Source: Bacillota bacterium (GTDB lineage: Bacteria > Bacillota > Sulfobacillia > Sulfobacillales > JAIMBI01). Taken from it: a stretch of DNA of 64,000 nt. The notes beneath the pieces were generated by a model, which was not told the origin of the DNA, did not search any database, and saw nothing but the letters and a program-made list of their open reading frames with translations. This document shows positions 1,550 through 60,634 of the stretch, in pieces. The stretch is taken from the NCBI GenBank assembly GCA_021820465.1, contig JAKADP010000003.1, positions 2,183 through 66,182 on the forward strand, written 5' to 3'. Made by a program: the position numbers and the translations under genes. Every line of letters begins with the position of its first letter. Position 1 is the first letter of the stretch.

Positions 1550-2158
1550 TCAGTTCTTGTTGGCGTCCCGCGCCTTCTGAAAGCGCTCCCAGTCTGCCGG
1601 CGTATCCAGATCACCCGGCGGCCACTCATCAACCTCGACGGTGCGCACCCGGTCTGCAGGCAGCCCGGCGGCCAGCGCCCGGGCCCCCCGATCCCCCGTC
1701 AGCTGATCGACGCTCGCCAACAGGCTCCGCGCCACATACACGGGATGGCCCGGCACGCCGCCGCGAAACTGAGGCACCACCAAGCCCGCATCCGGCCAGC
1801 GCGCCACGGCCGCGGCCACTGCACCGGCGGCCGCGGCGGACACTTCGGGCTCATCACCCAAAAACACCAGCAGGCCGCGCCGCCCCGCCGCGCGGGCCGC
1901 AATGGCCAGGGATGACGAGAGCCCGCGCTCCGGCGCCGCATTGAGCGCCACCACGACCCCCAGCTGAGCGGCGAGCGCCCGCACCGGGCCCGAGGCGGGC
2001 GCCACGACCAGCGGCAGGCGCCCGGTTGCTCGATGCACGGCGCCTACGCTGGCGGCCAGCACGGACACGCCTCCATGGGCCAGCGCCAGCTTGGGCGCCC
2101 CCATCCGCTGGGACAGTCCGGCCGCCAGCACCACGGGCAGCCATTCAGCGGGCGGCAT
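1550..2158 (-). CDS. MobA/MocA-like molybdenum cofactor nucleotidyl(cytidylyl)transferase
   Basis: Track ORF of 202 aa. The N-terminal LPVVLAAGLSQRMGAPKLAL matches the NTP-transferase fold. It overlaps the xdhC-like gene end by 14 nt. Confidence 0.7.
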   Translation of the reverse strand: MPPAEWLPVVLAAGLSQRMGAPKLALAHGGVSVLAASVGAVHRATGRLPLVVAPASGPVRALAAQLGVVVALNAAPERGLSSSLAIAARAAGRRGLLVFLGDEPEVSAAAAGAVAAAVARWPDAGLVVPQFRGGVPGHPVYVARSLLASVDQLTGDRGARALAAGLPADRVRTVEVDEWPPGDLDTPADWERFQKARDANKN

Positions 2159-3164: not shown

Positions 3165-3168
3165 GCGG

Positions 3169-3618
3169 CTACTCCTGAGCCCGGCGCTCGGCCGCCCGAC
3201 CGACCGCAGCAAAGAACTGCGTGAGAAGCATCTGCGAGACCCCTCCCATGACCCGCTGCCCGATTCCCGCCAGGGTGCCGCCCACCTGGGCTTCCCCTTC
3301 ATATTGCACCAGGCTGCCTGCCTCCGATGGCGCAATGCCCACCGTCAGCACGACATGCACAAACGCGCCGGGGCCCTTCCCATCCATTTCCAATCTGTAC
3401 CCGTTGGGAGGATCCGGGTCTCGAATCTCCATGGTCCCGGCGTACCGCCCGCGGACCGCCGAAATGCCGAGCTCCAGCACGGCGTCGTACTTGCCGGGCC
3501 CCACCGGCGTCAGCTGCTTCAAGCCCGGCATGGTTTCCACCAGGCTCTCCGGCGTCGTGAGCGCCTGATATACGACGTCGGGCGGCGCGGCCATCGTCAC
3601 CTGATTCTTGAGTTGCAT
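3169..3618 (-). CDS. coxG: CoxG-like SRPBCC family protein (carbon monoxide dehydrogenase subunit G family)
   Basis: Track ORF 3169..3654 trimmed to ATG 3618 (MQLKNQVTM...). About 150 aa with a CoxG-like sequence pattern, next to xdhC/mocA. Confidence 0.65.
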   Translation of the reverse strand: MQLKNQVTMAAPPDVVYQALTTPESLVETMPGLKQLTPVGPGKYDAVLELGISAVRGRYAGTMEIRDPDPPNGYRLEMDGKGPGAFVHVVLTVGIAPSEAGSLVQYEGEAQVGGTLAGIGQRVMGGVSQMLLTQFFAAVGRAAERRAQE

Positions 3619-12741: not shown

Positions 12742-12895
12742 CCGCTTCCTCCTCACCGGTACCAATCTCCCGCAGGCTGCGCCCGGTTAGTCGGGAAGTT
12801 CGCGCCGAGGAGCAAAACTCCTGCCCGGCCGGCCTTGACGTCCGCCCCGCGGGGCGCGATCGTGGACCGAGCGTCACGGGGCAGGAGGAATGACG

Positions 12896-13978
12896 ATGGC
12901 GGATGTGGTGGTCGTGGGAGCCGGGGTCATTGGCTTGGCCGCAGCGTGGCACCTCGCGGGCGACGGCATGGACGTGGCGGTCTTGGATGCGGGCCCTCTG
13001 GGGGGCCAGTCATCCCGGGCCGCCGCGGGCATCCTGGGGCCCCTCGTCGAGTCGCGCGACGACGGACCGCGGACGCGCTTGTTCTGGGACAGCTGGGTCG
13101 AGTTTCCCGCTTGGGTCGAGGCCCTGCGCGAAGACAGCGCCATTGACCCGGAATTTGAGCCCACCGGCATCCTGCGGCAGGTCGGCGCCGCGGAGCGCGA
13201 GGAGATGGAGGCCTCCCTTGCGTGGCGCCGCCAGTATTCACCCGAGTTGGAGTGGCTCGAGGACCAGGACCCCAATTGGCCCGCCGCCATCTGGTCCCCG
13301 CATGAGGGGCAAATCCGCGGCCCGGCCTATGTGGCGGCGCTGGCCCAGGCCGCGGCCGCGCGCGGCGTCGACATTCGACTGGGGGAGCCGGCGCGGCGCA
13401 TCGGCGTCCAGGCCGGCCAGGTGGTGGCCGTGGACACCCCGCGGCAGTCCCTGGCCACCAGCACCGTCGTACTGGCCGCCGGAGCCTGGGCCGGTGGACT
13501 GCTGCCGCACGCGGAGCCGCTGCCCGTGCTGCCCGTGCGCGGGCAGGCTTTGGCCCTGAAGGCTGCCCGGCCGCCGTTCCCGCATGTGGTGTTTGGCCCC
13601 ACCGGCTACCTGGCCCCCAAGCGAGACGGCCAGGTGGTGGTGGGGGCGACCGAAGACGCGGCGGCGGGGTTCGACGCGCGGGTGACGTTTGCCGGGATTG
13701 CGGCGCTGGCCGATGTCGTCCGATCCATGTCGCCCGAACTGCTGCCGCTGCCGTTTGACGGGGCGTGGGCCGGACTGCGGCCGGCCACCCCCGATGGCCG
13801 GCCGCTGCTGGGGCGGTGGCCCGGCATCGATGGCCTCATCATCGCCGCCGGGCACTACCGCAACGGACTCTTGCTCTCCCCCATCACGGCGCAGATCGTC
13901 CTGGCGCTGGTGCGGGGCCAGACGCCATCGGTGGATCTCACGCCGTTTCGCCCAGACCGGTTCCACCGCACGCGCTGA
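12896..13978 (+). CDS. thiO: glycine oxidase
   Basis: MADVVVVGAGVIGLAAAWHLA (FAD GxGxxG) and a DAO-family body. The thiamine gene context supports the call. Confidence 0.85.
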   Translation: MADVVVVGAGVIGLAAAWHLAGDGMDVAVLDAGPLGGQSSRAAAGILGPLVESRDDGPRTRLFWDSWVEFPAWVEALREDSAIDPEFEPTGILRQVGAAEREEMEASLAWRRQYSPELEWLEDQDPNWPAAIWSPHEGQIRGPAYVAALAQAAAARGVDIRLGEPARRIGVQAGQVVAVDTPRQSLATSTVVLAAGAWAGGLLPHAEPLPVLPVRGQALALKAARPPFPHVVFGPTGYLAPKRDGQVVVGATEDAAAGFDARVTFAGIAALADVVRSMSPELLPLPFDGAWAGLRPATPDGRPLLGRWPGIDGLIIAAGHYRNGLLLSPITAQIVLALVRGQTPSVDLTPFRPDRFHRTR

Positions 13979-13997
13979 CGCAGCCGCTCGCGTCTGG

Positions 13998-15575
13998 CTA
14001 TGCAGCGCGTGCGCGCCTCCTGCCGGGCGCGCGCGCGCAGGCGCCCGCGATCACGCTCGCCAGCAGGCCCAGCACCGCCAGCGCGGCCGCGCCCGCGGCG
14101 ATGCGGCTCAGCATCAGGGCGCCGGGTGGACCGAACGGCACGATCCGACCGGTGAGATAAGCCCCAAGTCCCGCATGGTAGAAGCGCTGCAGGGTGGCAT
14201 TGGCCACCATCGCCGACAGGAGGGCGGCGCCAGCCAGCAGGGCGGGCACCGCCGCCCACGCCATGCGCCGAATCGCCTGGGCAGCCAGCCAGAAAAACGG
14301 CCCCAGCAGGAAGAAGAAGTAGCGCCCCTGCAGGAAGCTGAGGCCGGTGGCCGCCCCATAGGAAATTTGCAGCATCCCCAGCACGCCCCCTCCCGCGGCC
14401 AGCCAGGCAACGGCAACCCAGTAGCCGGGGCGCCTGACCGCCACCGCCAGACCCCCAAGCAGCAGCGCGCCCAGCACCGCCGCCAGCACGGTGAACACCC
14501 CAAGGTCGATGGGCCAGGGGCTCCACCACACGATGCCAAACACCGTCTCCCCGACAAGCAGGTTTCTCAGATAAGCCCCATTGAAGAACTGGTGGTGCAG
14601 CACCCAAGCAGCCGTTCGCGGTGCTGCGCCCGCCCCCTGATAGGTAAGGGGAGGCACGATGGCGTGATAGGCGTGCCACGTGAACCACAGCCAGGGTCCG
14701 GCCACCAGCGCGGCCACGCCCACGGCCAGAGCCGCCCAGCGCGCGGCGCGCCGGGGCCCCACCCGCCGCCACACCGCGTACAGCACAAAGGGCACGGACA
14801 CCGCCAGCCCTACATACGCCTCTTCCTTGGTCCAGATGGCCAGACCGGCTGCCGCGCCAAGGAGCGCCGCGCCCCGCGCCCGAAAGCTGGGCGTGGTCAG
14901 GGCCCTGACCGTGAGATAAAACACCGCGAGGCTGGCCGCGTCCGCGGTCAGGTCGTTGGTGACCGTCCCTCCCAGCATGCCCAGCGTCGGGAACAACAGC
15001 CCGAACGCGGCCGTGAGCGCCATGCGCAGGCGCCGCCCCACAATCGCCAAGCCGACCACCAAGTCCATAAAGATGCCGGTCAGCCCCAGCAGGCCCGCCG
15101 ACAGCCCGCGCGCCAGAAAGGCCTGATCAAACACGTTCAAAAGATGGAGCGCCATCGCCGCCCGGCCGGCCACCGCGTAGTACAGCGGGGGGTAGATCCC
15201 CACGTAGTTCTGACTGCCCGACCGATCCCCGCCGGCCGCGGCGCTGGCGCGCTCAACCTCGCGGGCCACCCGGGCGGCCCCGCTCGGCGTGGTGGCCAGC
15301 CAGCCCTGCGGGCCTACCAGCAGCCGATTGCGCTGCGTGGCCTCGAGGGCAACCGCCTCCGCCGGGGACGCGCTGAACTGCCACGGCTGCCGGCCCGGCG
15401 CCACCACATGCTCCACCGGCGGCAAAACGTGCGTGGCCATATACTGCACGTAGGCAAAGTGGGCCGGCTCGTCGGCCCCCTGCCAGAGCGGCATGATTCC
15501 CATCCATGACAGCCCGATGGCCAAGAAGACGCTGAACACCACCAAAAGCTCGGCCCCGCGGATTTTCTGGCTCAT
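13998..15575 (-). CDS. large polytopic membrane protein (DUF2142 / GT-C-like)
   Basis: About 525 aa with many TM segments. The N-terminal WQGADEPAHFAYVQYM resembles DUF2142. ATG 15575 has GGAGG 8 nt upstream. Confidence 0.6.
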   Translation of the reverse strand: MSQKIRGAELLVVFSVFLAIGLSWMGIMPLWQGADEPAHFAYVQYMATHVLPPVEHVVAPGRQPWQFSASPAEAVALEATQRNRLLVGPQGWLATTPSGAARVAREVERASAAAGGDRSGSQNYVGIYPPLYYAVAGRAAMALHLLNVFDQAFLARGLSAGLLGLTGIFMDLVVGLAIVGRRLRMALTAAFGLLFPTLGMLGGTVTNDLTADAASLAVFYLTVRALTTPSFRARGAALLGAAAGLAIWTKEEAYVGLAVSVPFVLYAVWRRVGPRRAARWAALAVGVAALVAGPWLWFTWHAYHAIVPPLTYQGAGAAPRTAAWVLHHQFFNGAYLRNLLVGETVFGIVWWSPWPIDLGVFTVLAAVLGALLLGGLAVAVRRPGYWVAVAWLAAGGGVLGMLQISYGAATGLSFLQGRYFFFLLGPFFWLAAQAIRRMAWAAVPALLAGAALLSAMVANATLQRFYHAGLGAYLTGRIVPFGPPGALMLSRIAAGAAALAVLGLLASVIAGACARAPGRRRARAA

Positions 15576-15614
15576 CAGTGCCGCCTCCAACCTCGCTGGG
15601 GGGTGCGGCAGGCG

Positions 15615-16382
15615 TCATATCGCCTCGGCCCCGCCGCACACCGGGCACGTGGCGCGGACGGGCACCGGAACGACCCGCGCCGCCCCGGTAAACAGGTCCA
15701 CCAGCCACAGGCGGCCCGTGAGCGCCTGACCCACTCCCAGAATCCACTTCAGGGCCTCCCCCGCTTGTAGGGATCCTACCACCCCGACCAGCGGGCCCAG
15801 CACGCCGGCCACGCTGCACTCGGCGGGGGCGTCCGCCACCGAGCCAAACAGGCACGCCAGACAGGGCCGCCCGCCCGGAGGCACGACGGTCACCTGGCCC
15901 TCATATCCGAGCGCGCCGCCAAACACGACCGGTGCGCCCCCCCGGACGGCCCAGGCATTCAGCACATCGCGCATCCGCCCGTCGTCCAGCCCGTCCACCA
16001 CCACGGTCGCGCCGCCCAGCAGCGTGTCCGCGCTGTCCACCCCCAGTGCCACCGCGTGCCGCACGATGGACAGCCCTGGGCTCTGCGCGCGGAGGCGGGC
16101 GGCCGCCGCGTCCACCTTGAGCGCGCCCACGTCGGCCGCCCCATAGAGGATCTGGCGTCCCAAGTCCGTCGGCGCCACGCGGCCCGGGTCAATCAGGACG
16201 AGCCGCCCCACCCCCGCCGCCGCCAGATAGGGAGCGCTGGCACAGCCAAGTCCCCCCATCCCCACCATGGCCACGGTAGCGCCGGCCAGTTTGTCCAGCA
16301 TGGCGGGCCGCACGTCGGGCAGCGCCACGAGGCGCCGGACCCGGTCCACGTCGCGCACCACCGGGAAGCCCGAGTCGCTCAC
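15615..16382 (-). CDS. thiF: ThiF/MoeB-type sulfur-carrier adenylyltransferase
   Basis: VAMVGMGGLGCASAPYLAAAGVGRLVLID (E1-like Rossmann) and C-terminal CxxC pairs. The GTG start overlaps the thiG stop (GTGA). Confidence 0.8.
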   Translation of the reverse strand: MSDSGFPVVRDVDRVRRLVALPDVRPAMLDKLAGATVAMVGMGGLGCASAPYLAAAGVGRLVLIDPGRVAPTDLGRQILYGAADVGALKVDAAAARLRAQSPGLSIVRHAVALGVDSADTLLGGATVVVDGLDDGRMRDVLNAWAVRGGAPVVFGGALGYEGQVTVVPPGGRPCLACLFGSVADAPAECSVAGVLGPLVGVVGSLQAGEALKWILGVGQALTGRLWLVDLFTGAARVVPVPVRATCPVCGGAEAI

Positions 16383-17203
16383 GGCTTTGTGGCCGCCGAC
16401 ACGATGCCCGCCTCGGGCGAGGACGCTGCGGCACGGTCCCGGCGGGGCATGCGCCCGGCGGCGCGCCCCAAAAACGCCGCCTCCACGGCCAGACGCATGG
16501 CTTGGGCCATCTGCACCGGATGCCGGGCTTGGGCAATCGCGGTGTTGATGAGCACGGCGTCGGCGCCCGCCTCAATCGCCAGCGCGGCGTCGGCTGGACT
16601 GCCGATGCCCGCGTCCACCACGACGGGCACGCCGCCGACTCGCGCCTTGATGAGCGCCACCGCCGACACGTCCAGGACACCCTGCCCCGACCCGATGGGC
16701 GATCCCAGCGGCATCACGGCCGCGGCACCCGCCTCGGCGAGCCGGCGAGCCAGCACGGGGTCCGGCGTGGTGTACACCATGACCGTGAAGCCGTCGTCCA
16801 CCAGCAGGCGCGTGGCGTCATAGGTGGCCACCGGGTCAGGCCACAAAAGGTCCGCATCGCCAATCACCTCGAGCTTGACCAGGCTGCCAAGCCCGGCGGC
16901 CCGCGCCAGCCGCGCCGTCACAACCGCCTCCTCGGCCGTATGGGCCCCCGCGGTGTTGGGCAGCAGCGTCACCCCCTTCGGCACGTATTCCAAGAGCGAC
17001 GGCTCGTCCGGCTTGTCGATGTTGACCCGCCGGACGGCCACGGTCACCAACTCCGTCCCCGAGGCGTGAATGGCCTCCCGCATCTCCTCCCACGTGGCAT
17101 ATTTCCCTGTGCCCACAATGAGGCGCGAGCGGAACTGGTACTCCCCGACGCTCCACGACCCCAACTCCTTGGGCCGCATCCCGGCCGTCTCCTGCTCCGT
17201 CAT
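16379..17203 (-). CDS. thiG: thiazole synthase
   Basis: FRSRLIVGTGKY, LLPNTAG and MPLGSPIGSGQG are ThiG motifs. ATG 17203 is preceded by AAGGAGGAGG. Confidence 0.9.
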   Translation of the reverse strand: MTEQETAGMRPKELGSWSVGEYQFRSRLIVGTGKYATWEEMREAIHASGTELVTVAVRRVNIDKPDEPSLLEYVPKGVTLLPNTAGAHTAEEAVVTARLARAAGLGSLVKLEVIGDADLLWPDPVATYDATRLLVDDGFTVMVYTTPDPVLARRLAEAGAAAVMPLGSPIGSGQGVLDVSAVALIKARVGGVPVVVDAGIGSPADAALAIEAGADAVLINTAIAQARHPVQMAQAMRLAVEAAFLGRAAGRMPRRDRAAASSPEAGIVSAATKP

Positions 17204-17228
17204 GTCGTCCTCCTCCTTTCGCGGCGCG

Positions 17229-17429
17229 CTACCCACCACCAACAAACCGGACGATTTCCAACTCGTCGCGGTCGTGCAGCGGCTCGCGGTCAAACGCCTC
17301 GCGCGCCACCACCTGCCCGTTTTGCAGCACCCCCACCGCCTGATGCGTGACCCCCAGGTGGGTCAACAGTGCGCCCACCGTGGGCAACTCTGGGGTCTCG
17401 CGCCAGCTGCCGTTTACCTTTAACTCCAC
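17229..17429 (-). CDS. thiS: sulfur carrier protein ThiS
   Basis: 66 aa ending in VGGG. GTG 17429 is preceded by GGGAGG. Lies between thiE and thiG. Confidence 0.8.
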   Translation of the reverse strand: MELKVNGSWRETPELPTVGALLTHLGVTHQAVGVLQNGQVVAREAFDREPLHDRDELEIVRFVGGG

Positions 17430-17442
17430 GGTCTCGCCTCCC

Positions 17443-18042
17443 TCATGTCGCCCCTCCATGGCGCGCCCAAGGCGCCGCCAGCTCTCGGGCCGCCCGCGCC
17501 GGGTCCGGGGCGAGCCACAGCGCGTCCACGACGGCCACCCCGGCCAGCCCCGCCTCGCACACAGCGGCCGCGCGGCGGGCATCCACTCCCCCGATCCCGA
17601 CCACCGGCACGGCCGCTTCGCGCGCCACTTGGGCCGCGAGGTTTAGGCCGCGGGGTTCGAGCCCTGGCTTCGACCGGGTGGGAAACAGGTGGCCAAACAC
17701 CAGCCAATCGGCCCCCTGGGACCGCTGCAGGTCCTCCACGCTGTGCACGGCCCGCGAAATCACAGCGGTTGGCATCAGACGGCGCACGTCTGCCGGCGAC
17801 AGTCCATCGCCGGGCAGGTGCACGCCCGCCACGCCCAGGACCATCGCCACATCGGCGCGGTCGGCCACCAGCACCGGCCGACCCCCGACGGCCGCCGCCA
17901 ACTCCACCGTCCACCGCCGCTGAGCCTCTGCCGGCAGGCTCTTGGCCCGAAGGATGAACACATCGACCCAAGGGGCGCACCGCGCCGCGCTCGTGGGCCA
18001 GTTGGCCGGCGCCCGGGGAACATCCAACACCGCCACCAGCAT
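17443..18042 (-). CDS. thiE: thiamine-phosphate synthase
   Basis: Track ORF 17443..18852 trimmed to ATG 18042, which overlaps the cytX stop (TAATG). A ThiE-like TIM barrel of 199 aa: VFILRAK, GVHLPGD, FPTRSKPG, VVGIGGV. Confidence 0.8.
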   Translation of the reverse strand: MLVAVLDVPRAPANWPTSAARCAPWVDVFILRAKSLPAEAQRRWTVELAAAVGGRPVLVADRADVAMVLGVAGVHLPGDGLSPADVRRLMPTAVISRAVHSVEDLQRSQGADWLVFGHLFPTRSKPGLEPRGLNLAAQVAREAAVPVVGIGGVDARRAAAVCEAGLAGVAVVDALWLAPDPARAARELAAPWARHGGAT

Positions 18043-19466
18043 TAGGTAGACTGCTCCGATGCCATGCTCATCTCCGGCTGCTGGCCCCGTGGCCAGCTGC
18101 TGTAAATCAGGACGCTGGCCGCGAACGCCACCAGAAAGCCAAGGTCCGATCCCTGAAACACTCCGGTGGCCAGCGGGCCCTGATACACGGTGGTGGAGCT
18201 GAAGAGCGCCGCCACAACCAAGCCCGCCCCCCAGGCCACCAGCGCGGGGATCCGATACGCGCCATAGAGAGAGTCCCGCCCGCGATAAAGTTCCGGGACA
18301 TTGACGCCGTGCTTGAGACGCGTCGCCAAGTCCACCAAAAACACACCGGCCCAAGGCGCCAGCACCCCGGCCAACAGGCTCAGGAACGCCTCGAAGGTGC
18401 CCATGAACGACTGGGAGGCCGCCAAGAGGACGTACAGGCTGCCGGCCACCGAAAGCACCGCGTCGACAAACACGGTCCGGTATCGGGGTATGCGAACCTC
18501 CGCGGCCAGCAAGCTCAATCCCGAGGAATAGATGTCCAGAATGTCTCCGGTCACCATGCTGGCGACGGCCGTCAGGAGGTAGGGCACGGCCAGCCCACTG
18601 GGCAGCATCGCCTGCAGATAGCCGATCGGATTGGCCGTGGTGGCCAGGCCCGCGTGGCCGCCGTACAGCAGCAGGCCGAGCAGCATGAGCGCCGCGGCCG
18701 GGATGACCGACCCCCAGGTGGTGGCGCCCCAAATGCGGCGGCTCGAGGTGGTGCGGGGCAGGTAGCGCGTGTAGTCGCTCGCCGTGTTGACCCACGAAAG
18801 CCCCGTTGCCGCCACCACGACGGAGAAAGCCGGCAGCACCCCTGTAAGCCACGGGCCGTTGGGAATCCGCCCCAGAGCGCTCCAGTTGACATGCGGCAGC
18901 AGCAGCGCGGCCACAACCACGGTCATGGCACCAAACACATAGCTAAAGGCCGTCTGCACGCGCACCAGCGTCGCATGGCCCAACAGCGCCACGGAAAAGG
19001 CCACACCCATCACCAGCGCCAGCGAGCCAACGGCCACCGGCCACGTCGGCGCCCACCCGAACGCCGCATGACCCGCCGCCTCCAGCGCCAGCGTGGCCAC
19101 CACCAGCACAACCGTCTCCCAGCCCACCAGGTTCACCCACGACACCAGGCTGGGAAGCACGTTGCCGCGGGTCCCGAACGACGCGCGGCTCAAGACCATG
19201 GTGGGCACTCCCGTCCGCGTCCCCGGAATGGCGAAGTATCCAATCAGCGCAAACGATCCCACGCCGGTCAGCACCAGGAGCCCCTGCGCCAGCGATAGGC
19301 CGTAGGACATGGCCACGGCCCCCAGCACCAAGCCTACAATCGCCAGATTGGCCGCAAACCACACCCAAAACAAGTTGCCGGGACGCGCGTGCCGCTCTTC
19401 GTCCGGAACGGGATTGGCCCCGTTCTGTTCGATGCGCCACGCTTGATCTCCCGATGCTGCTGCCAC
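18042..19466 (-). CDS. cytX: purine-cytosine permease family transporter, putative hydroxymethylpyrimidine transporter
   Basis: 474-aa polytopic NCS1-like protein. It is the first gene after a TPP riboswitch. The GTG start is preceded by AAGGAGG. Confidence 0.75.
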   Translation of the reverse strand: MAAASGDQAWRIEQNGANPVPDEERHARPGNLFWVWFAANLAIVGLVLGAVAMSYGLSLAQGLLVLTGVGSFALIGYFAIPGTRTGVPTMVLSRASFGTRGNVLPSLVSWVNLVGWETVVLVVATLALEAAGHAAFGWAPTWPVAVGSLALVMGVAFSVALLGHATLVRVQTAFSYVFGAMTVVVAALLLPHVNWSALGRIPNGPWLTGVLPAFSVVVAATGLSWVNTASDYTRYLPRTTSSRRIWGATTWGSVIPAAALMLLGLLLYGGHAGLATTANPIGYLQAMLPSGLAVPYLLTAVASMVTGDILDIYSSGLSLLAAEVRIPRYRTVFVDAVLSVAGSLYVLLAASQSFMGTFEAFLSLLAGVLAPWAGVFLVDLATRLKHGVNVPELYRGRDSLYGAYRIPALVAWGAGLVVAALFSSTTVYQGPLATGVFQGSDLGFLVAFAASVLIYSSWPRGQQPEMSMASEQST

Positions 19467-29803: not shown

Positions 29804-29878
29804 TGGCTGGGGAGGCAGGGTTCGAACCTGCGAATGCCGGCTTCAAAGGCCGGTGCCTTACCACTTGGCGACTCCCCA
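29804..29878 (-). tRNA. tRNA-Gln (anticodon UUG)
   Basis: The minus strand gives UGGGGAGUCGCCAAGUGGUAAGGCA...CCGGC-CUUUGAA-GCCGG...GGUUCGAACC...CCA. It has U1-A72 and an encoded CCA. Confidence 0.9.
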
Positions 29879-29886
29879 ACACAATT

Positions 29887-29962
29887 TGGTGGAGCGGAGG
29901 GGATTCGAACCCCTGACCCCCAACGTGCAAAGCTGGTGCTCTACCAACTGAGCTACCGCCCC
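29887..29962 (-). tRNA. tRNA-Ala (anticodon UGC)
   Basis: GGGGCGGUAGCUCAGUUGGUAGAGCA with anticodon loop UUUGCAC, a G3:U70 pair, a GGUUCGAAUCC T-loop and CCA. Confidence 0.9.
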
Positions 29963-29981
29963 GCTCCCTGGCTCAAGATAA

Positions 29982-30056
<75 letters not shown>

Positions 30057-30105
30057 CACAAAAACTGCCCCATCAGGACGCGGTGCCCGGGGCGCTGAAG
30101 CAAAT

Positions 30106-30181
30106 TGGCAGGCCAGGAGGGACTCGAACCCCCAACCCGCGGTTTTGGAGACCGCTGCTCTACCATTGGAGCTACTGGCCT
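30106..30181 (-). tRNA. tRNA-Trp (anticodon CCA)
   Basis: AGGCCAGUAGCUCCAAUGGUAGAGC with anticodon arm GCGGU-CUCCAAA-ACCGC, a GGUUCGAGUCC T-loop and CCA. Confidence 0.9.
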
Positions 30182-30217
30182 GCGACGCTTCTGCCTGGAT
30201 TCTACCACAAACGAGAC

Positions 30218-30294
30218 TGGTGGGCCATGAAGGATTCGAACCTTCGACACTCCGCTTAAAAGGCGGATGCTCTAACCAGCTGAGCTAATGGCCC
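30218..30294 (-). tRNA. tRNA-Lys (anticodon UUU)
   Basis: GGGCCAUUAGCUCAGCUGGUUAGAGC with anticodon arm CCGC-CUUUUAA-GCGG, a GGUUCGAAUCC T-loop and CCA. Confidence 0.9.
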
Positions 30295-30303
30295 CCCACA
30301 AAT

Positions 30304-30379
30304 TGGTGGCCCCACCGGGATTCGAACCCGGGTTACCACCTTGAAAGAGTGGTGTCCTAGGCCTCTAGACCATGGGGCC
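30304..30379 (-). tRNA. tRNA-Glu (anticodon UUC)
   Basis: GGCCCCAUGGUCUAGAGGCCUAGGAC with anticodon loop CUUUCAA, a GGUUCGAAUCC T-loop and CCA. Confidence 0.9.
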
Positions 30380-30384
30380 AAGTT

Positions 30385-30460
30385 TGGTGGAGATGAGGGG
30401 GGTCGAACCCCTGACCTCGTGAATGCCATTCACGCGCTCTACCAACTGAGCTACATCCCC
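30385..30460 (-). tRNA. tRNA-Ala (anticodon GGC)
   Basis: GGGGAUGUAGCUCAGUUGGUAGAGC with anticodon arm CGUGA-AUGGCAU-UCACG, a G3:U70 pair and CCA. Confidence 0.9.
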
Positions 30461-50238: not shown

Positions 50239-50331
50239 GCCGCATCCTGGGGCGGTCGTCGTGATGTGATTTGGCCAGGTCGAGCCTGAAGTGTGGTACG
50301 ATATGCGGTACCAGATGAAGGGGTGGTTCTG

Positions 50332-50580
50332 ATGGCCATTACCGCGAGTGAGGCTCGCCGCGGTCTGTTTCCGCTCATCCAACAGGTGAACGATGACCGA
50401 GCGGCCATCGTGATCACGTCCAAGGGCGGCAATGCCGTGCTCATGTCGGCGGACGAGTACGCCGCCTGGCAGGAGACGGCGTATCTGTTCCGTTCGCCGG
50501 CCAACGCGCGCCGACTGCTCGATGCCGCCGACGCCGCCTCACGAGGGAACATCACCGAACATCCCTTGGACCGGACGTGA
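50332..50580 (+). CDS. yefM: Phd/YefM family antitoxin
   Basis: MAITASEARRGLFPLIQQVNDDRAAIVITSKGGNAVLMSADEYAAWQETAYL. GAAGGGG upstream. Confidence 0.9.
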   Translation: MAITASEARRGLFPLIQQVNDDRAAIVITSKGGNAVLMSADEYAAWQETAYLFRSPANARRLLDAADAASRGNITEHPLDRT

Positions 50581-50840
50581 GGCTCGTCGTCACACCGCAA
50601 GCCTGGGAAGATTATGGCTACTGGCAGCGCAATGACCGAGCGTTGATCACGCGCATCAACCGGTTGGTTGATGACGCTTTGCGTCACCCCACTACCGGGA
50701 TCGGCAAACCGGAGCCGCTGAAATATGGGATTGTTGGCGCCTGGTCGCGACGCATCACGGAGGAGCACCGGTTGGTGTACCAACTGGCCGGGGACGATCT
50801 TGTGCTCTTGCAGGCACGCTATCACTATGGGAAGCCATAG
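50577..50840 (+). CDS. yoeB: Txe/YoeB family toxin
   Basis: WEDYGYWQ...GIGKPEPLKY...WSRRITEEHRLVY...RYHY closely parallels E. coli YoeB. The GTG overlaps the yefM stop (GTGA). Confidence 0.9.
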   Translation: MRLVVTPQAWEDYGYWQRNDRALITRINRLVDDALRHPTTGIGKPEPLKYGIVGAWSRRITEEHRLVYQLAGDDLVLLQARYHYGKP

Positions 50841-53648: not shown

Positions 53649-55511
53649 CTACTGCGCCGCCGCCGCGGGATCGCGGGCCACGTCCGTCGCCACCAGGCCC
53701 GGGTCAAACTGCTCGTGGTACAGCGCGGCATACAGGCCGCCTTGGCGCAGGAGCTGCGCGTGGGCGCCCCGCTCGCGAATCCGGCCTCCCGCGACCACCA
53801 GAATCTGATCCGCCGCGAGCACGGTGGAGAGCCGATGAGCGATGGCCACGACCGTGCGTCCCTGGAAGAGCCGGTCCAGTGCCTCCTGAATCAGGCGCTC
53901 GGCGTGGCTGTCCAACGAGCTCGTCGCCTCGTCCAGCAGCAGCACGCTGGGGTTTTTCAAAATAGCCCGCGCAATCGCGACGCGCTGCTTCTCCCCACCG
54001 GACAGCCGGTACCCGCGCTCGCCCACCACCGTCTCCAACCCCTCCGGCAGGGCCGCGATGAGGTCACCTAGCTGCGCGGCGTCGGCAGCCTGCCGCACGG
54101 CCGCGTCGTCGGCCGTGGGCCGCCCGTACCGGATATTGTCCGCCAGCGTCGTGTGAAACAGATAAAGCTCCTGGGTCACGACCGCCATGGCGGACCGGAG
54201 CTCCGACTCCGCAAGCTCCGCCAGCGGCACCCCTCCCAGCCGCACCGCACCGGATTCGGGGTCGTAGAAGCGCGCCCCCAGCGACAAGATCGTGCTTTTT
54301 CCGGCCCCCGATGGTCCCACGACCGCCGTCAGCTGACCGGGTTGGGCGACGAACGACACCCCGTGCAGCACTTCTTCGTGGGGCTTGTATCCGAAGTGCA
54401 CGCGGTCAAACTCCAAGGGAAGCGGCGCCACCCCCACGGCGCCGGGCAACGCGCGCGGCGCCGCGGGCTCGGGCACGTCGACCGGCAAGTCCAGAAAGCG
54501 AAAGATGCGGTCAAACAGCGCCAGGCCGCCAATGAGGGTGGTATTGGACCCCGCCAGTGACGACGCCGGGCTGTACAGCTGCACTAGGTACGTGGCAAAC
54601 GCCACGATGGTGCCCAGCTCCGCCCGGTGCGTGATCACCAGGTATCCGCCATAGCCATAGAGGAGTGCGGGCCCCAGCGCGGACAGAATGCGCACCACCA
54701 TGCTGAGCCACTGGCCCACCATGCTTTGCCGCACCTGATTGGTGCGGACGGCGGCGCTGTACCGAGCAAACCGGTCCGCCTCGCGGGGCCGGGTGCCAAA
54801 GCTGGTGACGACCAAAATTCCCGACAGGGTCAAGGTTTCCTCAAGGTGGGCCGTCATCTGCGACATGGACTCCTGCGTTCGGTTGATGGCGTCGTAGGTG
54901 CGCCGGCCAAAGCTCAGGACCGGAAGCGCAAAGGCCGGCAGGACCAACGCCGCCGCGATCGCCAGCTCCCAGTTGATGATGAACATCGTCGCCAGCGTGA
55001 GCGTGACGGTCAGCGCGTTGACAAACAGTCCCGTCATGGTGCGGCTCAGGACGTTTTGCACCGCGTTCAAGTCGTTGACCAGCCGCGAGTGGATCTCCCC
55101 ACCCGGCGTCTTGGTAAAAAACCGAATGCCCAGGCGCTGGCCGTGCCGGTACATCGCCGTGCGCAGGTCATGTATGACCGCCTGAGCCACCACGGCGTTC
55201 AAGTAACTCTGCCCAACGCTGACCACGGCGCCCACGGCGGGAAACGCCAGCAGGCCTGCGGCGAGCCACCACAGGGAGGCGTAGTTGCGCTGGCGAATCG
55301 CGCTGTCAATGATTTGCCGCATCAGCAGGGGCGGGACCAAGCCCAGCAGCACGCCCAACACGGTGAGCGCCAGTGCACCAGCGATGAGCCGGCGGTGGGG
55401 GCCCAGCGTTCGCAGGAGCCGCCGCGCGGTCTCTTTGGTGGGCTTGCCCTGCTCCATGTACCCAAGCGACCGCCGCTGCTCCCACACGGCGTGCATGCCG
55501 TGCATGCTCAC
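53649..55511 (-). CDS. ABC exporter, fused permease/ATPase (MsbA/type I exporter-like)
   Basis: 6-TM N-domain. Walker A GPSGAGKST, signature LSGGEKQR and Walker B LLLDEATS. GTG 55511 overlaps the marR stop (GTGA). Confidence 0.85.
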   Translation of the reverse strand: MSMHGMHAVWEQRRSLGYMEQGKPTKETARRLLRTLGPHRRLIAGALALTVLGVLLGLVPPLLMRQIIDSAIRQRNYASLWWLAAGLLAFPAVGAVVSVGQSYLNAVVAQAVIHDLRTAMYRHGQRLGIRFFTKTPGGEIHSRLVNDLNAVQNVLSRTMTGLFVNALTVTLTLATMFIINWELAIAAALVLPAFALPVLSFGRRTYDAINRTQESMSQMTAHLEETLTLSGILVVTSFGTRPREADRFARYSAAVRTNQVRQSMVGQWLSMVVRILSALGPALLYGYGGYLVITHRAELGTIVAFATYLVQLYSPASSLAGSNTTLIGGLALFDRIFRFLDLPVDVPEPAAPRALPGAVGVAPLPLEFDRVHFGYKPHEEVLHGVSFVAQPGQLTAVVGPSGAGKSTILSLGARFYDPESGAVRLGGVPLAELAESELRSAMAVVTQELYLFHTTLADNIRYGRPTADDAAVRQAADAAQLGDLIAALPEGLETVVGERGYRLSGGEKQRVAIARAILKNPSVLLLDEATSSLDSHAERLIQEALDRLFQGRTVVAIAHRLSTVLAADQILVVAGGRIRERGAHAQLLRQGGLYAALYHEQFDPGLVATDVARDPAAAAQ

Positions 55512-55960
55512 GACGGCACCTCCGCGGTGCGGCGGCTGTCCGCCCACGCCTCCAAGGCGTCTGCCCAGGCGTGCCGCCGGTCGGCCGGCACGCGCTCCAG
55601 CAGGCTCTTCAGCACAACGTGTCGACCGGCCTCAAAGCGCTGGTAGGCGGCGCGCCCTGGCTCGGTGACCGCCACCCGCACGCGCGACCCATGTCCCGGA
55701 TCGGCCCGGCGCTCGGCCCAGCCCCACTCCTCCAGCCTGTCGAGATGCGTCGTCATCGTGCTGGTGCGCACCCCAACGTCATCGGCCAACTCCGACGGCG
55801 ATCGCTCGCCGCCGCCTACGAGCGCTTCCAGAACCCGAAATGCGCCGCGGCCCCCGCGGCCGCCAGACGCGTCCCGCGCCGCCTGGCGCACCCCGGCCAT
55901 CCACTCACGCCGAAACCGCTCCAGCAAAGTATCCAGCCTCGCCACTTCATCCTCAGTCAT
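55508..55960 (-). CDS. MarR family transcriptional regulator
   Basis: Winged helix: FRVLEALVGGGERSPSELADDVGVRTSTMTTHLDRLEEWGWAERR. Confidence 0.8.
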   Translation of the reverse strand: MTEDEVARLDTLLERFRREWMAGVRQAARDASGGRGGRGAFRVLEALVGGGERSPSELADDVGVRTSTMTTHLDRLEEWGWAERRADPGHGSRVRVAVTEPGRAAYQRFEAGRHVVLKSLLERVPADRRHAWADALEAWADSRRTAEVPS

Positions 55961-56092
55961 GCCGGCACGCTCCATTCGCTAGGCTTGCTAGCTTCAGGGT
56001 ACCACACCACGAGCCCCGGGGTCGGCTCACTGGGTGGCGAAGGCTCCCCATGCATCGATGCGTCGCGGTGGGCCCAGGTGCCTCCACAAAAT

Positions 56093-56186
56093 TGGCGGGA
56101 GTATGTGGGAATCGAACCCACCGCCGACCGCCGGCCGGCCATCGGATTTGAAGTCCGTGGAAGGCACCAGTCCTCCATCTACCCCC
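56093..56186 (-). tRNA. selC: tRNA-Sec (anticodon UCA)
   Basis: 94 nt on the minus strand: GGGGGUAG-AU-GGAGGACUGGUGCCUUCC-A-CGGA-CUUCAAA-UCCG-...long variable arm (GGCCGGC/GCGGUCGGC)...-GUGGG-UUCGAUU-CCCAC-AUACUCCC-G-CCA. The acceptor strand is 8 nt and the T stem is 5 bp. The anticodon stem is only 4 clean bp. Confidence 0.75.
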
Positions 56187-56242: not shown

Positions 56243-57457
56243 TTACCCCTCGCCCACGCCAAGGTCGCTCACCGCGGCGCTGAGCCGGCCGCCCACCGCG
56301 GACCACGCCCCCGCGCCCAGCAGGAGCCCGGCCAGCAGCATCAAGGACGCGGGAGCCCCCAGCGCACCGCCCGCGCCCCCAAAGAAGCGCGCCCCCAGCC
56401 GCTCGGCGGCCGAGAGCGTGTGGCTGGACCCGCTCACCGCCCCCAGGTCCTCGTCGGGTGTGTGGGCCTGCATGGCGGCACCCAAAACGGGGTACCCGCC
56501 CGCCAGCGCCCCATCCATCAAAAACATGGCTGCGGAGGCAGCGACGACGCTGCGTGAGATGGCCAGCAGCGCCATCCCCGCCGCCGCCGCCACGGTGAAG
56601 GCGGCCAGCACGCTCCGCCATGGCCAGCGCCCTAGGCGCGACAGCAGCGCCACGCTGGCCACGTCCCCCACGCCAGCCGCCGACAGGATGATCCCTGCGT
56701 CGCCAACCGTGAGGCCGGGCGTGTGCTGTACGAGGACCAGCACCAGAATAAACGCCGCCCCGCTCAATTCGTAAGCCAGCCGGATGCCGGCCACGAGGCG
56801 CAGACGGTCGCGGCGCCACAGGGCCCGAAACCCCTCATGCCAGCGGACGGTGGCCCCCGCCGGGCGCTCGCCCGCCCCCGCCCCTGCAGGAGCCACCCGT
56901 GACAGCACTAGCGCCGCAGCGCCCAGCGCCGCGCCGTTGACCAAGAGGACGGGTGCGCGGCCTCCCGCCATCAGCAGCCACCCTGCCGCCAGCGGCCCGA
57001 TCACGGTGGCCAGGGCATCGGCCCCCTCCAGCAGCCGGTGGGCTTCGGGCAGCCAGCGGCGCCCCACGGCCCCGGGCAGCCACGCGGAGAATGCCACGCC
57101 ACGGGTGGTATCAGCGGCACCCACCGCAAGCGCCGCCGCGCCTAGAATGGGCGCACGCAGTTCATGGCCCGCGGCCACCCAGGCCAAGAGGACCCACACC
57201 AGCGCCTCGGCCGCTGTACCTGCCACCGCCCAGGCCTGCCGCCGCCGCGCGGACAAGCGCGCGCCCATCACGCCGGAGAGCAGCAGCGGGGGCACCTGCT
57301 CCAGGGCCAGCACCAGCCCGGCCTCCCACGCCGACCCGCTGAGCCTCAGAACAATCCATGGGAGCACCAAGTTGCCGAAGCGGCTGCCCAGCACCATGAA
57401 CAGCCAGCTGGCCCAAATGTGGCGCAGGGCCTTGGGATGCTGGTGGGTAGGCCACAA
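56243..57457 (-). CDS. MFS transporter
   Basis: 404-aa polytopic protein with an MFS_3-like N-terminus (FMVLGSRFGNLVLPWIVL). Confidence 0.75.
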   Translation of the reverse strand: MWPTHQHPKALRHIWASWLFMVLGSRFGNLVLPWIVLRLSGSAWEAGLVLALEQVPPLLLSGVMGARLSARRRQAWAVAGTAAEALVWVLLAWVAAGHELRAPILGAAALAVGAADTTRGVAFSAWLPGAVGRRWLPEAHRLLEGADALATVIGPLAAGWLLMAGGRAPVLLVNGAALGAAALVLSRVAPAGAGAGERPAGATVRWHEGFRALWRRDRLRLVAGIRLAYELSGAAFILVLVLVQHTPGLTVGDAGIILSAAGVGDVASVALLSRLGRWPWRSVLAAFTVAAAAGMALLAISRSVVAASAAMFLMDGALAGGYPVLGAAMQAHTPDEDLGAVSGSSHTLSAAERLGARFFGGAGGALGAPASLMLLAGLLLGAGAWSAVGGRLSAAVSDLGVGEG

Positions 57458-58798: not shown

Positions 58799-59059
58799 TT
58801 AGTGGTTCTCCTCGGTGCTGTTCGTCGCCGGGCTCGAGCCGTCCGCGCGCGCTCCGCTCGGCGCTCCCGTGGCATCGTAGGACATGGGATACGTGGGCGC
58901 CTTGCCCGGCTCATCCATCACGCCCGACATGGCTCCCCGAAACTCACGAATCGCGCGCCCGAGTCCTGACCCAATCTCCGGCAGCCGCTTCGGTCCAAAA
59001 ACCAACAGCGCCACAATCAGGAGCAGGACAATGTGCACTGGCGTCAACAAGTCGCCCAT
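58799..59059 (-). CDS. tatA: twin-arginine translocase TatA/E family protein
   Basis: MGDLLTPVHIVLLLIVALLVFGPKRLPEIGSGLGRAIREFR. Confidence 0.85.
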   Translation of the reverse strand: MGDLLTPVHIVLLLIVALLVFGPKRLPEIGSGLGRAIREFRGAMSGVMDEPGKAPTYPMSYDATGAPSGARADGSSPATNSTEENH

Positions 59060-60061: not shown

Positions 60062-60634
60062 ATGCAGCAGTACTGGGTGCCATTTTGGGACATCATGCGG
60101 ACGCGCGAGATTGAAGTGCTGGCCCGCCGGCGATTGCACCATCTGACACGGGGCGCCTACGAAGTGTCGGAAGTGTTGCCCTGCCGCCTGAATCAGGTGG
60201 TAACCACCACGGTGTGCTGGTGTGGCACGCGTCCCATTTTGATCCTCTCGACGGCCGACGTGCGCATCGACTACCGCATTTTCGTGCGGTGGTTTGGATA
60301 CGAAGTGCGCCCCGCCACCTCCACCGAAGTGTCAGCGCTGACGTCTGCCCACCTGCAGGGGGTGCCTCCGGGGGGGCTCCCTTACATGATGCCCGTTTTT
60401 CTGGATGATGTGCTGCTGGAGTCTGACTCACTCTGGATTCCTGCCGGCGACCCGTCGGTGTGGGTGCGCGTGGTGCCGCGTGACGTGGTCAAAGTCTCCG
60501 GAGCCTTCCCGGTCTCCATCCGGCTGGCTCCGCCGGCCCGGGATGAGCGGTACAGCTACTACGCCGTCAGCCGGCTGAATGCCCAGGGGGTCCTGGAGCC
60601 GGCGGAGCCGGCCGTGCGGTCAGGAACCGACTAA
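60062..60634 (+). CDS. YbaK/EbsC-like (aminoacyl-tRNA editing domain-like) protein
   Basis: The central region VVTTTVCWCGTRPILILSTADVRIDY...LQGVPPGGLPYMMPVFLDDVLLESDSLWIPAGDPSVWVRV fits the YbaK pattern. Weak call. The 3' end overlaps menH convergently. Confidence 0.45.
   Translation: MQQYWVPFWDIMRTREIEVLARRRLHHLTRGAYEVSEVLPCRLNQVVTTTVCWCGTRPILILSTADVRIDYRIFVRWFGYEVRPATSTEVSALTSAHLQGVPPGGLPYMMPVFLDDVLLESDSLWIPAGDPSVWVRVVPRDVVKVSGAFPVSIRLAPPARDERYSYYAVSRLNAQGVLEPAEPAVRSGTD

What the first reader, a model, noticed from the sequence alone, without database searches (positions are those of the whole stretch)
56093..56186. Stand-alone tRNA-Sec (selC) with slightly atypical arms
The 94-nt minus-strand RNA has a CUUCAAA anticodon loop (UCA), an 8-nt acceptor strand, a 5-bp T stem, a long GC-rich variable arm and an encoded CCA. 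Together these point to tRNA-Sec rather than a class II Ser or Leu tRNA. Oddities seen: a G-A opposition at the base of the acceptor stem, and only 4 clean base pairs in the anticodon stem. It sits between a marR-ABC exporter operon and an MFS gene, with no selA or selB neighbour in this window.
Basis: partly seen in the sequence, partly recalled or inferred. Interest (0 to 1): 0.6.

Follow-up and report, generated by a model that had tools for sequence, protein, structure and literature searches.

The report
Ordinary bacterial selenocysteine tRNA gene
This is a normal, well-conserved bacterial selenocysteine tRNA gene (selC) with its own promoter; the features flagged as odd are standard variations of this tRNA family, so the finding is correct but ordinary.

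Summary
The 94-nt gene at 56093-56186 (minus strand) is a genuine selC. ARAGORN calls tRNA-SeC(UCA). Rfam tRNA-Sec scores 67.8 bits against a threshold of 47, within the 67.8-76.8 range of 18 comparison genes.

Neither flagged oddity is a defect:
- **G.A at the acceptor base (pair 7:66).** It is the commonest state among 80 related tRNA-Sec genes (27 G.A; only 33 Watson-Crick).
- **"4-bp" anticodon stem.** It is a 6-bp stem (26:44 to 31:39) with one bulged A. The Aquifex aeolicus tRNA-Sec crystal structure has the same architecture. The D stem is likewise 6 bp with a bulge and a 4-nt loop.

Covariation across the 80 sequences supports the whole 8/5 cloverleaf: 93.7% of cells pair, versus 45-55% with slid partners.

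The tRNA is 100% identical in a sister species whose flanks are only about 80% identical. A TTGACA/-10 promoter sits in front of it in all close relatives whose upstream sequence is held. The window is 99.9% identical to a public metagenome-assembled genome (GCA_027343685.1), a Bacillota near Sulfobacillus and Thermaerobacter.

No selA, selB, selD or selenoprotein gene lies in the window. That is usual: only about 10% of the roughly 120 selC loci held (each up to 8 kb) have one nearby. Whether the genome encodes the machinery could not be tested. Already known; low interest.

The parts
56093..56186 (-). selC gene: tRNA-Sec(UCA), 94 nt including the encoded CCA
   Evidence: ARAGORN; Rfam RF01852 at 67.8 bits vs gathering score 47; 100% identical in L055 and L123
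56179..56186 (-). Acceptor stem, 5' strand (tRNA nt 1-8, GGGGGUAG)
   Evidence: Pairs with nt 83-90. Seven standard pairs (one is G4.U87) plus G8.A83. Columns 1-8/92-99 are 92.4% paired across 80 sequences
56097..56104 (-). Acceptor stem, 3' strand (tRNA nt 83-90, AUACUCCC). A83 opposes G8, forming pair 7:66
   Evidence: Pair 7:66 in 80 relatives: G.A 27, G-C 25, G.G 9, C.A 9, U-A 8, A.G 2
56160..56176 (-). D arm (nt 11-27): 6-bp stem G11-C27, G12.U26, A13-U25, G14-C24, G15-C23, [A16 bulged], C17-G22; 4-nt loop UGGU
   Evidence: Rfam alignment. Five of six pairs covary. CUGG and G22 are invariant and U21 is nearly invariant. Position 16 is A/U/C/G or absent in relatives. A bulged D stem is described for bacterial tRNA-Sec in PMC3711452 and PMC5330540
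56140..56159 (-). Anticodon arm (nt 28-47): C28-G47, A29-U46, [A45 bulged], C30-G44, G31-C43, G32-C42, A33-U41; loop CUUCAAA
   Evidence: Pair 26:44 (columns 28:48) is standard in 76 of 79 sequences and covaries (CG 66, UA 5, AU 2, GC 2, GU 1). The bulged 6-bp form is -40.7 kcal/mol, vs -39.8 for the 4-bp reading and -41.7 for the minimum free energy fold
56149..56151 (-). Anticodon UCA (reads UGA)
56123..56139 (-). Long extra (variable) arm: 7-bp stem G48-C64 to C54-G58, loop GGC. G65 (56122) is the invariant linker equivalent to G48 of A. aeolicus
   Evidence: All 7 pairs covary, 94.4% paired. G65 is invariant in 80 of 80. The stem is 6-9 bp in bacterial tRNA-Sec (PMC3711452)
56105..56121 (-). 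T arm: 5-bp stem GUGGG/CCCAC, loop UUCGAUU
   Evidence: 99% paired, though part of this arm was fixed by the search pattern
56093..56096 (-). Discriminator G73 (56096) and encoded CCA (56093-56095)
   Evidence: G is invariant in 80 of 80, but the search pattern fixed it. G73 is the strongest SerRS identity element in E. coli tRNA-Sec (PMC9976931)
56199..56228 (-). Sigma-70-type promoter-like site: TTGACA, 18-nt spacer, CATACT, ending 12 nt before tRNA nt 1
   Evidence: 10 of 12 consensus matches; shuffles give a mean of 0.1 sites. A TTGACA (TTTACT in L073) with a TATGAT, TAGGAT, TACAAT or CATACT -10 sits at the same place in L055, L062, L111, L022, L043 and L073
56243..57457 (-). Context only: MFS transporter gene between cysK and selC
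   Evidence: Pfam MFS_1. Only remnants remain in L055 and it is absent in L062
57529..58479 (-). Context only: cysK (cysteine synthase A). The cysK-selC linkage is conserved in relatives (gatD-cysK-selC in most)
   Evidence: TIGR01139 at 400 bits. Linkage seen in L055, L062, L111 and L043
53649..55975 (-). Context only: marR-family regulator (55508-55975) and ABC exporter (53649-55547) downstream of the tRNA 3' end
   Evidence: Pfam. Not shared with L055, so synteny ends at the tRNA

Best explanation
This is a functional, independently transcribed selC gene encoding the canonical bacterial 8/5 tRNA-Sec.

Inferred mechanism, from the established bacterial pathway (not shown here):
1. SerRS charges the tRNA with serine, recognising the G73 discriminator and the long extra arm.
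2. SelA converts Ser to Sec using selenophosphate made by SelD.
3. SelB-GTP delivers Sec-tRNA-Sec to in-frame UGA codons followed by a SECIS hairpin. The most likely target is a formate dehydrogenase, as in the related genus Sulfobacillus.

What is shown here: the gene's identity, its fold, its conservation and a conserved promoter.
What is inferred: charging, conversion, delivery and the target genes.

The features flagged as odd are lineage-typical parts of the fold. [quoted passage not shown] Pair 7:66 lies in the three-pair box that in E. coli tRNA-Sec rejects EF-Tu and is recognised by SelB. An irregular pair there is therefore plausibly functional rather than damaging; this last point is inference.
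For: - **Detection.** ARAGORN calls tRNA-SeC(UCA). Rfam tRNA-Sec scores 67.8 bits vs gathering score 47 over the full model, beating the general tRNA model. This equals or nearly equals the scores for Ca. Brocadia (67.9), Halothermothrix (68.0) and an Aquificota relative of the crystallised tRNA (70.2). The range for 18 comparison genes is 67.8-76.8.
- **Fold.** On 80 related tRNA-Sec sequences the proposed cloverleaf is 93.7% paired, vs 75.6% in shuffles (0 of 500 reach it) and 45-55% with slid partners. There are 449 cells with a change on both sides, against a mean of 143 in the shuffles.
- **Match to a solved structure.** The architecture is that of A. aeolicus tRNA-Sec: 8-bp acceptor, 5-bp T stem, 6-bp D stem with a bulge, 4-nt D loop, 6-bp anticodon stem 26:44-31:39 with a bulge near 43a, and an extra stem of 6-9 bp (PMC3711452).
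- **Purifying selection.** The tRNA is 94/94 identical in L055, whose flanking DNA is about 80% identical. At that divergence, zero changes in 94 nt would have a probability of roughly 0.8^94, about 1e-9, under neutrality.
- **Structure-preserving change.** Relatives have U29-A45 or U29.G45 with U46 bulged. The window has A29, which pairs with U46 and moves the bulge to A45.
- **Expression signal.** A conserved -35/-10 promoter lies 12 nt upstream here and at the same position in six relatives.
- **Lineage uses Sec.** The closest named relatives are Sulfobacillus, Hydrogenisulfobacillus and Thermaerobacter. All Sulfobacillus genomes are reported to encode Sec-containing formate dehydrogenases (PMC4378227).
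- **Stand-alone is usual.** Among the roughly 120 selC loci held (each up to 8 kb), only 11 carry selA, 10 carry selB and 8 carry selD.
Against: - No selA, selB, selD or recognisable selenoprotein gene lies in the 64-kb window or in 4.4 kb beyond it. The rest of the genome could not be examined, so use of the tRNA is inferred.
- The source is a metagenome-assembled population (99.9% identical to GCA_027343685.1). Even a full search of that assembly could miss genes.
- The Rfam score is at the bottom of the comparison range.
- The comparison set was collected with a DNA pattern that fixed part of the anticodon arm, the T arm and the acceptor 3' end. Invariance in those columns is by construction.
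Confidence: 0.88

Rival explanations
1. Orphan selC. The tRNA gene persists, but the genome has lost selA, selB and selD. It is then unused, or at most a weak Ser-inserting UGA suppressor.
For: No Sec machinery or selenoprotein gene lies within the 64-kb window. The same holds for the flanks held for the seven closest relatives' selC loci.
Against: The tRNA is 100% identical between species whose flanks differ by about 20%. A promoter is conserved across six relatives. The one stem change is structure-preserving. Sulfobacillus, a related genus, has Sec-containing formate dehydrogenases (PMC4378227). Sel genes are absent from the flanks in about 90% of selC loci generally.
Confidence: 0.07
2. 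A tRNA-Sec look-alike with another identity, decoding UGA without selenium. Candidates are selC*-type tRNA-Cys (suggested by the conserved cysK neighbour) or an allo-tRNA-type Ser tRNA.
For: cysK sits next to this tRNA in the window, L055, L062, L111 and L043. The UCA anticodon is shared with some selC* tRNAs (PMC7609411).
Against: selC* tRNA-Cys has U73, an 8/4 fold with an A51a bulge, and nearby selB*/cysS* genes. Allo-tRNAs have 12-bp 8/4 or 9/3 acceptor domains (PMC7609411). This tRNA has G73, a 5-bp T stem and 8 nt between the T stem and G73. No cysS or selB paralogue is nearby. cysK is a metabolic enzyme, not a tRNA-charging enzyme. The linkage looks like inherited gene order.
Confidence: 0.03
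3. A pseudogene or a chance tRNA-like sequence.
For: The thermodynamic fold alone is unremarkable: z = -1.2 against shuffles, and the minimum free energy fold is not the cloverleaf.
Against: Full-length covariance-model match at E = 1e-11, covariation support, cross-species identity, and a conserved promoter. The cloverleaf lies within 1 kcal/mol of the minimum free energy fold.
Confidence: 0.02

Closest known systems
Bacterial tRNA-Sec (selC), Rfam RF01852. The structural reference is Aquifex aeolicus tRNA-Sec (Itoh et al. 2013, PMC3711452).
   Same: UCA anticodon; 8/5 acceptor-T helix; 6-bp D stem with one bulged nucleotide and a 4-nt loop; 6-bp anticodon stem including 26:44 with one bulge; 7-bp extra stem; invariant linker G before the T stem; G73; encoded CCA.
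   Different: Pair 7:66 is G.A instead of G-C. The D-stem bulge lies between pairs 14:21 and 15:20a (A16) rather than at 11a. The anticodon-stem bulge is one step earlier (A45, before pair 27:43) than U43a. The acceptor-D linker is A-U rather than U-U.
Escherichia coli selC tRNA-Sec
   Same: Same family, the same 8/5 fold, G73 and a long extra arm. Presumably the same pathway (SerRS, SelA, SelD, SelB).
   Different: E. coli has C7-G66, G49.U65 and C50-G64 as the box that rejects EF-Tu and is recognised by SelB (PMC9976931). This tRNA has G.A, G-C and U-A at those positions. E. coli has no D-stem bulge. In E. coli selC is a known island-integration site. Here no integrase or att repeat was found.
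tRNA-Sec variants with a 12-bp acceptor-T helix (Cloacimonetes type and others; Secmarker paper, PMC5330540)
   Same: Both show natural irregularities: bulges in the D and anticodon stems and imperfect acceptor helices, in genomes that do use Sec.
   Different: [quoted passage not shown] This tRNA has 8, so it keeps 13 helical layers, one of them non-Watson-Crick.
selC* tRNA-Cys and allo-tRNAs (Mukai et al., reviewed in PMC7609411)
   Same: Long extra arm, extended acceptor stem; some carry a UCA anticodon.
   Different: Those have 8/4 or 9/3 folds, U73 (selC*), and adjacent selB*/cysS* genes. None of these applies here.

Membership tests
Bacterial tRNA-Sec (selC) | Covariance-model score above the curated threshold, beating the general tRNA model | tested here: met
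   RF01852 at 67.8 bits vs 47, full length; the clan competitor was dropped. ARAGORN calls tRNA-SeC
Bacterial tRNA-Sec (selC) | UCA anticodon in a 7-nt loop | tested here: met
   Loop CUUCAAA, anticodon at 56149-56151
Bacterial tRNA-Sec (selC) | 13-layer acceptor-T helix in the 8+5 arrangement | tested here: met
   There are 8 nt between the T stem and G73 and a 5-bp T stem. Seven standard pairs plus G.A at 7:66. That position is non-Watson-Crick in 47 of 80 relatives
Bacterial tRNA-Sec (selC) | 6-bp D stem with a 4-nt D loop | tested here: met
   6 bp plus bulged A16, loop UGGU. Bulges here are described in PMC3711452 and PMC5330540
Bacterial tRNA-Sec (selC) | Long extra arm (6-9 bp stem) and G73 discriminator, the SerRS identity elements | tested here: met
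   7-bp stem with all pairs covarying; discriminator G91 (PMC3711452, PMC9976931)
Bacterial tRNA-Sec (selC) | The same genome encodes selA, selB and selD | not testable with these tools
   Absent from the window and from 4.4 kb beyond it. The related genus Sulfobacillus has the trait (PMC4378227)
Bacterial tRNA-Sec (selC) | The genome contains genes with an in-frame UGA and a SECIS element | tested here: inconclusive
   The only same-frame TGA junction with coding signal on both sides (15615-15617) is the normal stop of ThiF. No FdhA, Grd or other known selenoprotein family lies in the window. The rest of the genome is unseen
Bacterial tRNA-Sec (selC) | Serylation by SerRS, conversion by SelA, binding by SelB and not by EF-Tu | not testable with these tools
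   Biochemical
selC* tRNA-Cys | U73, an 8/4 fold with an A51a bulge, and adjacent selB*/cysS* genes (PMC7609411) | tested here: not met
   G73, a 5-bp T stem with no bulge, and no selB or cysS paralogue nearby
allo-tRNA | 12-bp acceptor domain as 8/4 or 9/3 (PMC7609411) | tested here: not met
   The fold is 8/5
Class II tRNA-Ser or tRNA-Leu | 7/5 fold, 3-4 bp D stem with a large D loop | tested here: not met
   8/5 fold, 6-bp D stem and 4-nt loop; the general tRNA model is outscored
Genomic island integrated at selC | Integrase next to the tRNA 3' end and a direct repeat of the tRNA 3' end at the far boundary | tested here: not met
   No second copy of the 26-mer (up to 3 mismatches) or the 17-mer (up to 2 mismatches) in the window. 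No integrase among the downstream genes. Synteny with L055 does end at the tRNA

The most novel reading that the evidence does not exclude
In this Bacillota lineage, and in many other bacteria, the non-Watson-Crick 7:66 pair (G.A here) may be a selected feature rather than a tolerated one. It would form the local version of the box that rejects EF-Tu and is recognised by SelB, replacing the C7-G66/G49.U65/C50-G64 solution of E. coli. A less likely extension is that the conserved cysK-selC adjacency reflects co-regulation of sulfur and selenium amino-acid metabolism.
Probability: 0.15. Interest if true: 0.3.

Novelty: already known. Interest (0 to 1): 0.1.

Why it matters
It matters little beyond correct annotation. 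The gene marks this uncultured, high-GC Bacillota population (near Sulfobacillus and Thermaerobacter) as a probable selenocysteine user. That in turn predicts UGA-containing genes, most likely a formate dehydrogenase, which gene callers will truncate.

The comparison also gives a practical rule. A G.A, C.A or G.G opposition at the last acceptor pair, and single bulges in the D and anticodon stems, should not be read as signs of decay in bacterial tRNA-Sec genes.

Tried and rejected
1. **Exact-sequence look-ups failed at first.** Look-ups of window CysK and MarR found nothing because my start codons differed from the called genes. This was solved through the homologue search: P0001, 100% identical, led to GCA_027343685.1.
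2. **Selenoprotein genes in the window.** I looked for same-frame ORF pairs split by TGA with coding GC3 on both sides. There were two candidates. The 1913 junction has weak upstream coding signal. The 15617 junction is ThiF's ordinary stop.
3. **selC as an island-integration site.** No att-like repeat and no integrase were found. A tblastx of relatives' downstream DNA against the window gave only high-GC noise.
4. **Single-sequence thermodynamic folding is uninformative.** z = -1.2, and the minimum free energy fold is not a cloverleaf. Covariation was used instead.
5. **An alternative 7-bp D-stem register without position 26 was rejected.** Relatives such as L087 pair only in the 6-bp-plus-bulge register.
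6. **Walking along the source contig to look for sel genes is not possible.** Only window-encoded proteins can be looked up.
7. **No further whole-database searches for SelA or SelB.**

Full report
**Observation.** The minus strand of 56093-56186 reads GGGGGUAGAUGGAGGACUGGUGCCUUCCACGGACUUCAAAUCCGAUGGCCGGCCGGCGGUCGGCGGUGGGUUCGAUUCCCACAUACUCCCGCCA. ARAGORN calls it tRNA-SeC with anticodon tca, the only one among eight tRNAs in the window. Rfam's tRNA-Sec model RF01852 matches 56097-56186 over its full length at 67.8 bits (gathering score 47, E = 1e-11) and outcompetes the general tRNA model. The neighbours are as described: an MFS gene upstream, and a marR-family gene plus an ABC exporter downstream.

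**Source and relatives.**
- The window has about 70% G+C.
- A pattern scan of one genome per species returned about 120 tRNA-Sec loci.
- The identical tRNA occurs in L055 (Bacillota MAG TL1-2.bin2). Its flanks (menF, menD, gatD, cysK) are only about 80% identical to the window.
- The next closest tRNAs are in other uncultured Bacillota (L121, L073, L111), one MAG labelled Actinomycetes (L062), and Sulfobacillus MAGs (L022, L043).
- A CysK search found a 100% identical protein. Its contigs are 99.9% identical to the window: NCBI GCA_027343685.1 contig DAHWKI010000007.1, plus ENA and Logan assemblies.
- The closest named CysK homologues are Ca. Hydrogenisulfobacillus (67%), Thermaerobacter (64%) and Sulfobacillus (61%).

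**Structure.** The Rfam alignment and the A. aeolicus tRNA-Sec crystal structure (PMC3711452) serve as guides. That structure has an 8-bp acceptor, a 5-bp T stem, a 6-bp D stem with bulged C11a, a 4-nt D loop, and a 6-bp anticodon stem from 26:44 to 31:39 with bulged U43a. It also reports that bulges are frequent in bacterial tRNA-Sec. On that basis the window tRNA folds as follows:
- Acceptor 1-8/83-90: seven standard pairs plus G8.A83.
- Linker: A9 U10.
- D stem: G11-C27, G12.U26, A13-U25, G14-C24, G15-C23, bulged A16, C17-G22; loop UGGU.
- Anticodon stem: C28-G47, A29-U46, bulged A45, C30-G44, G31-C43, G32-C42, A33-U41.
- Extra arm: G48-C64 to C54-G58. Linker: G65.
- T stem: 66-70/78-82. 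Then G91 and CCA.

On an alignment of 80 tRNA-Sec sequences this cloverleaf is 93.7% paired. Column shuffles give 75.6% (0 of 500 reach the observed value) and slid partners give 45-55%. There are 449 doubly changed cells, and every helix covaries where it varies. It lies within 1 kcal/mol of the unconstrained minimum.

**The two "oddities".**
1. *G.A at 7:66.* In the 80 sequences this position is G.A 27, G-C 25, G.G 9, C.A 9, U-A 8 and A.G 2. A non-Watson-Crick opposition is therefore the majority state, and G.A is the single commonest. All seven closest relatives share it. Pair 7:66 belongs to the three-pair box (7:66, 49:65, 50:64) that in E. coli rejects EF-Tu and is recognised by SelB (PMC9976931). 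An irregular pair there is plausibly functional; this is inference.
2. *The anticodon stem.* Relatives have U29-A45 or U29.G45, with U46 bulged and C28-G47 closing the stem. The window, L055 and L062 have A29, which pairs with U46 and shifts the bulge to A45. The stem stays at 6 bp plus one bulge. Pair 26:44 is standard in 76 of 79 sequences and covaries.

One caveat applies. The search pattern fixed parts of the anticodon arm, the T arm and the acceptor 3' end. Invariance there is by construction, and the sample is not unbiased.

**Evidence of function.**
- The tRNA is 94/94 identical between two species with about 20% flank divergence.
- A sigma-70-type promoter (TTGACA, 18 nt, CATACT) ends 12 nt before tRNA nt 1. 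A -35/-10 pair occupies the same place in L055, L062, L111, L022, L043 and L073, although the surrounding sequence differs.
- The Rfam score is at the low end of, but inside, the range of 18 comparison selC genes (67.8-76.8).

**Context.**
- Pfam and NCBIfam scans of about 50 ORFs found no selA, selB or selD. Neither did a tblastn with 29 SelA, SelB and SelD sequences harvested from other selC loci. No known selenoprotein family was found either. The one convincing same-frame TGA junction is ThiF's stop.
- This absence is normal. Of the roughly 120 selC loci held, 11 have selA, 10 have selB and 8 have selD within the flanks held. None of the seven closest relatives does.
- cysK-selC is a conserved arrangement, usually preceded by gatD (window, L055, L062, L111, L043). 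The MFS gene between them is intact only here.
- Downstream of the tRNA 3' end, gene order differs in every relative. No integrase or att repeat is present in the window.

**Mechanism.** The established bacterial route is inferred, not shown: SerRS, then SelA with SelD-made selenophosphate, then SelB and SECIS at UGA. The lineage is expected to use it, because all Sulfobacillus genomes are reported to carry Sec-containing formate dehydrogenases (PMC4378227). Whether this genome has the machinery could not be tested.

**Comparison and verdict.** The gene meets every testable defining feature of bacterial tRNA-Sec. It fails those of selC* tRNA-Cys (U73, 8/4 fold, selB*/cysS* neighbours), allo-tRNAs (12-bp 8/4 or 9/3 acceptor domains) and class II tRNA-Ser (PMC7609411). 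The "atypical arms" are typical. This is already known biology, and standard annotation pipelines would label it correctly. Interest is low.

Noticed in passing
window 29804-30460 (-): A tight array of seven tRNA genes: Gln(UUG), Ala(UGC), Gly(UCC), Trp(CCA), Lys(UUU), Glu(UUC), Ala(GGC). All score 62-75 bits with Rfam.
   Followed up: no
window 19534-19633 (-), with genes 12890-19466: A TPP riboswitch (68.7 bits) lies directly upstream of a cytosine/purine/thiamine-family permease (18042-19466). ThiG (16379-17293), ThiF (15615-16382) and a ThiO-like FAD oxidase (12890-13978, +) are nearby. Together they look like a thiamine salvage and biosynthesis cluster.
   Followed up: partly
window 13998-15590 (-): A 530-aa ORF with strong coding GC3 (0.86) and no Pfam hit follows ThiF in the same frame, straight after its TGA stop. 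Function unknown.
   Followed up: partly
window 20047-21279 (+): An IS110-family transposase (DEDD_Tnp_IS110 plus Transposase_20).
   Followed up: no
window 56100-56112; loci L125, L126, L128: Three independent Logan metagenome contigs of the same population end inside the tRNA gene, at window positions 56112, 56100 and 56112. Assembly graphs therefore branch at selC. Either the tRNA is shared by co-occurring species or the DNA downstream varies between strains.
   Followed up: partly
window 56243-57457 (-); L055:5994-6159; L062:528-569: The MFS transporter gene between cysK and selC is intact in the window. In the sister species L055 it is reduced to N- and C-terminal remnants, and in L062 it is absent, with cysK ending 40 bp from selC.
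   Followed up: partly
L001:6600-6670 (-), L002:405-470 (-) (IMG/VR viral contigs): Both viral contigs carry only the 3' part of a tRNA-Sec, from the anticodon stem to CCA, joined to unrelated AT-rich DNA. ARAGORN finds no tRNA there. They look like attachment sites of phages that integrate into selC of other, lower-GC hosts.
   Followed up: partly
window 60062-60634 (+), 58799-59059 (-), about 50265-50773: Three small features: a YbaK-type free-standing tRNA-editing domain ORF on the opposite strand inside the men/gatD gene run, a TatA gene between gatD and cysK, and a YoeB/YefM toxin-antitoxin pair downstream of the Opp-type permeases.
   Followed up: no
window 1550-3335 (-): A MobA-like nucleotidyltransferase and an XdhC-family protein (molybdenum-cofactor insertion helpers) sit side by side. 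Proteins of this type accompany molybdenum hydroxylases, some of which depend on selenium. No link to selC was established.
   Followed up: no
L043:4763-4926 (-), L022:3200-4459 (+): In Sulfobacillus relatives, mobile elements lie close to selC: a group II intron domain match in L043 and an IS1595-family transposase in L022.
   Followed up: no
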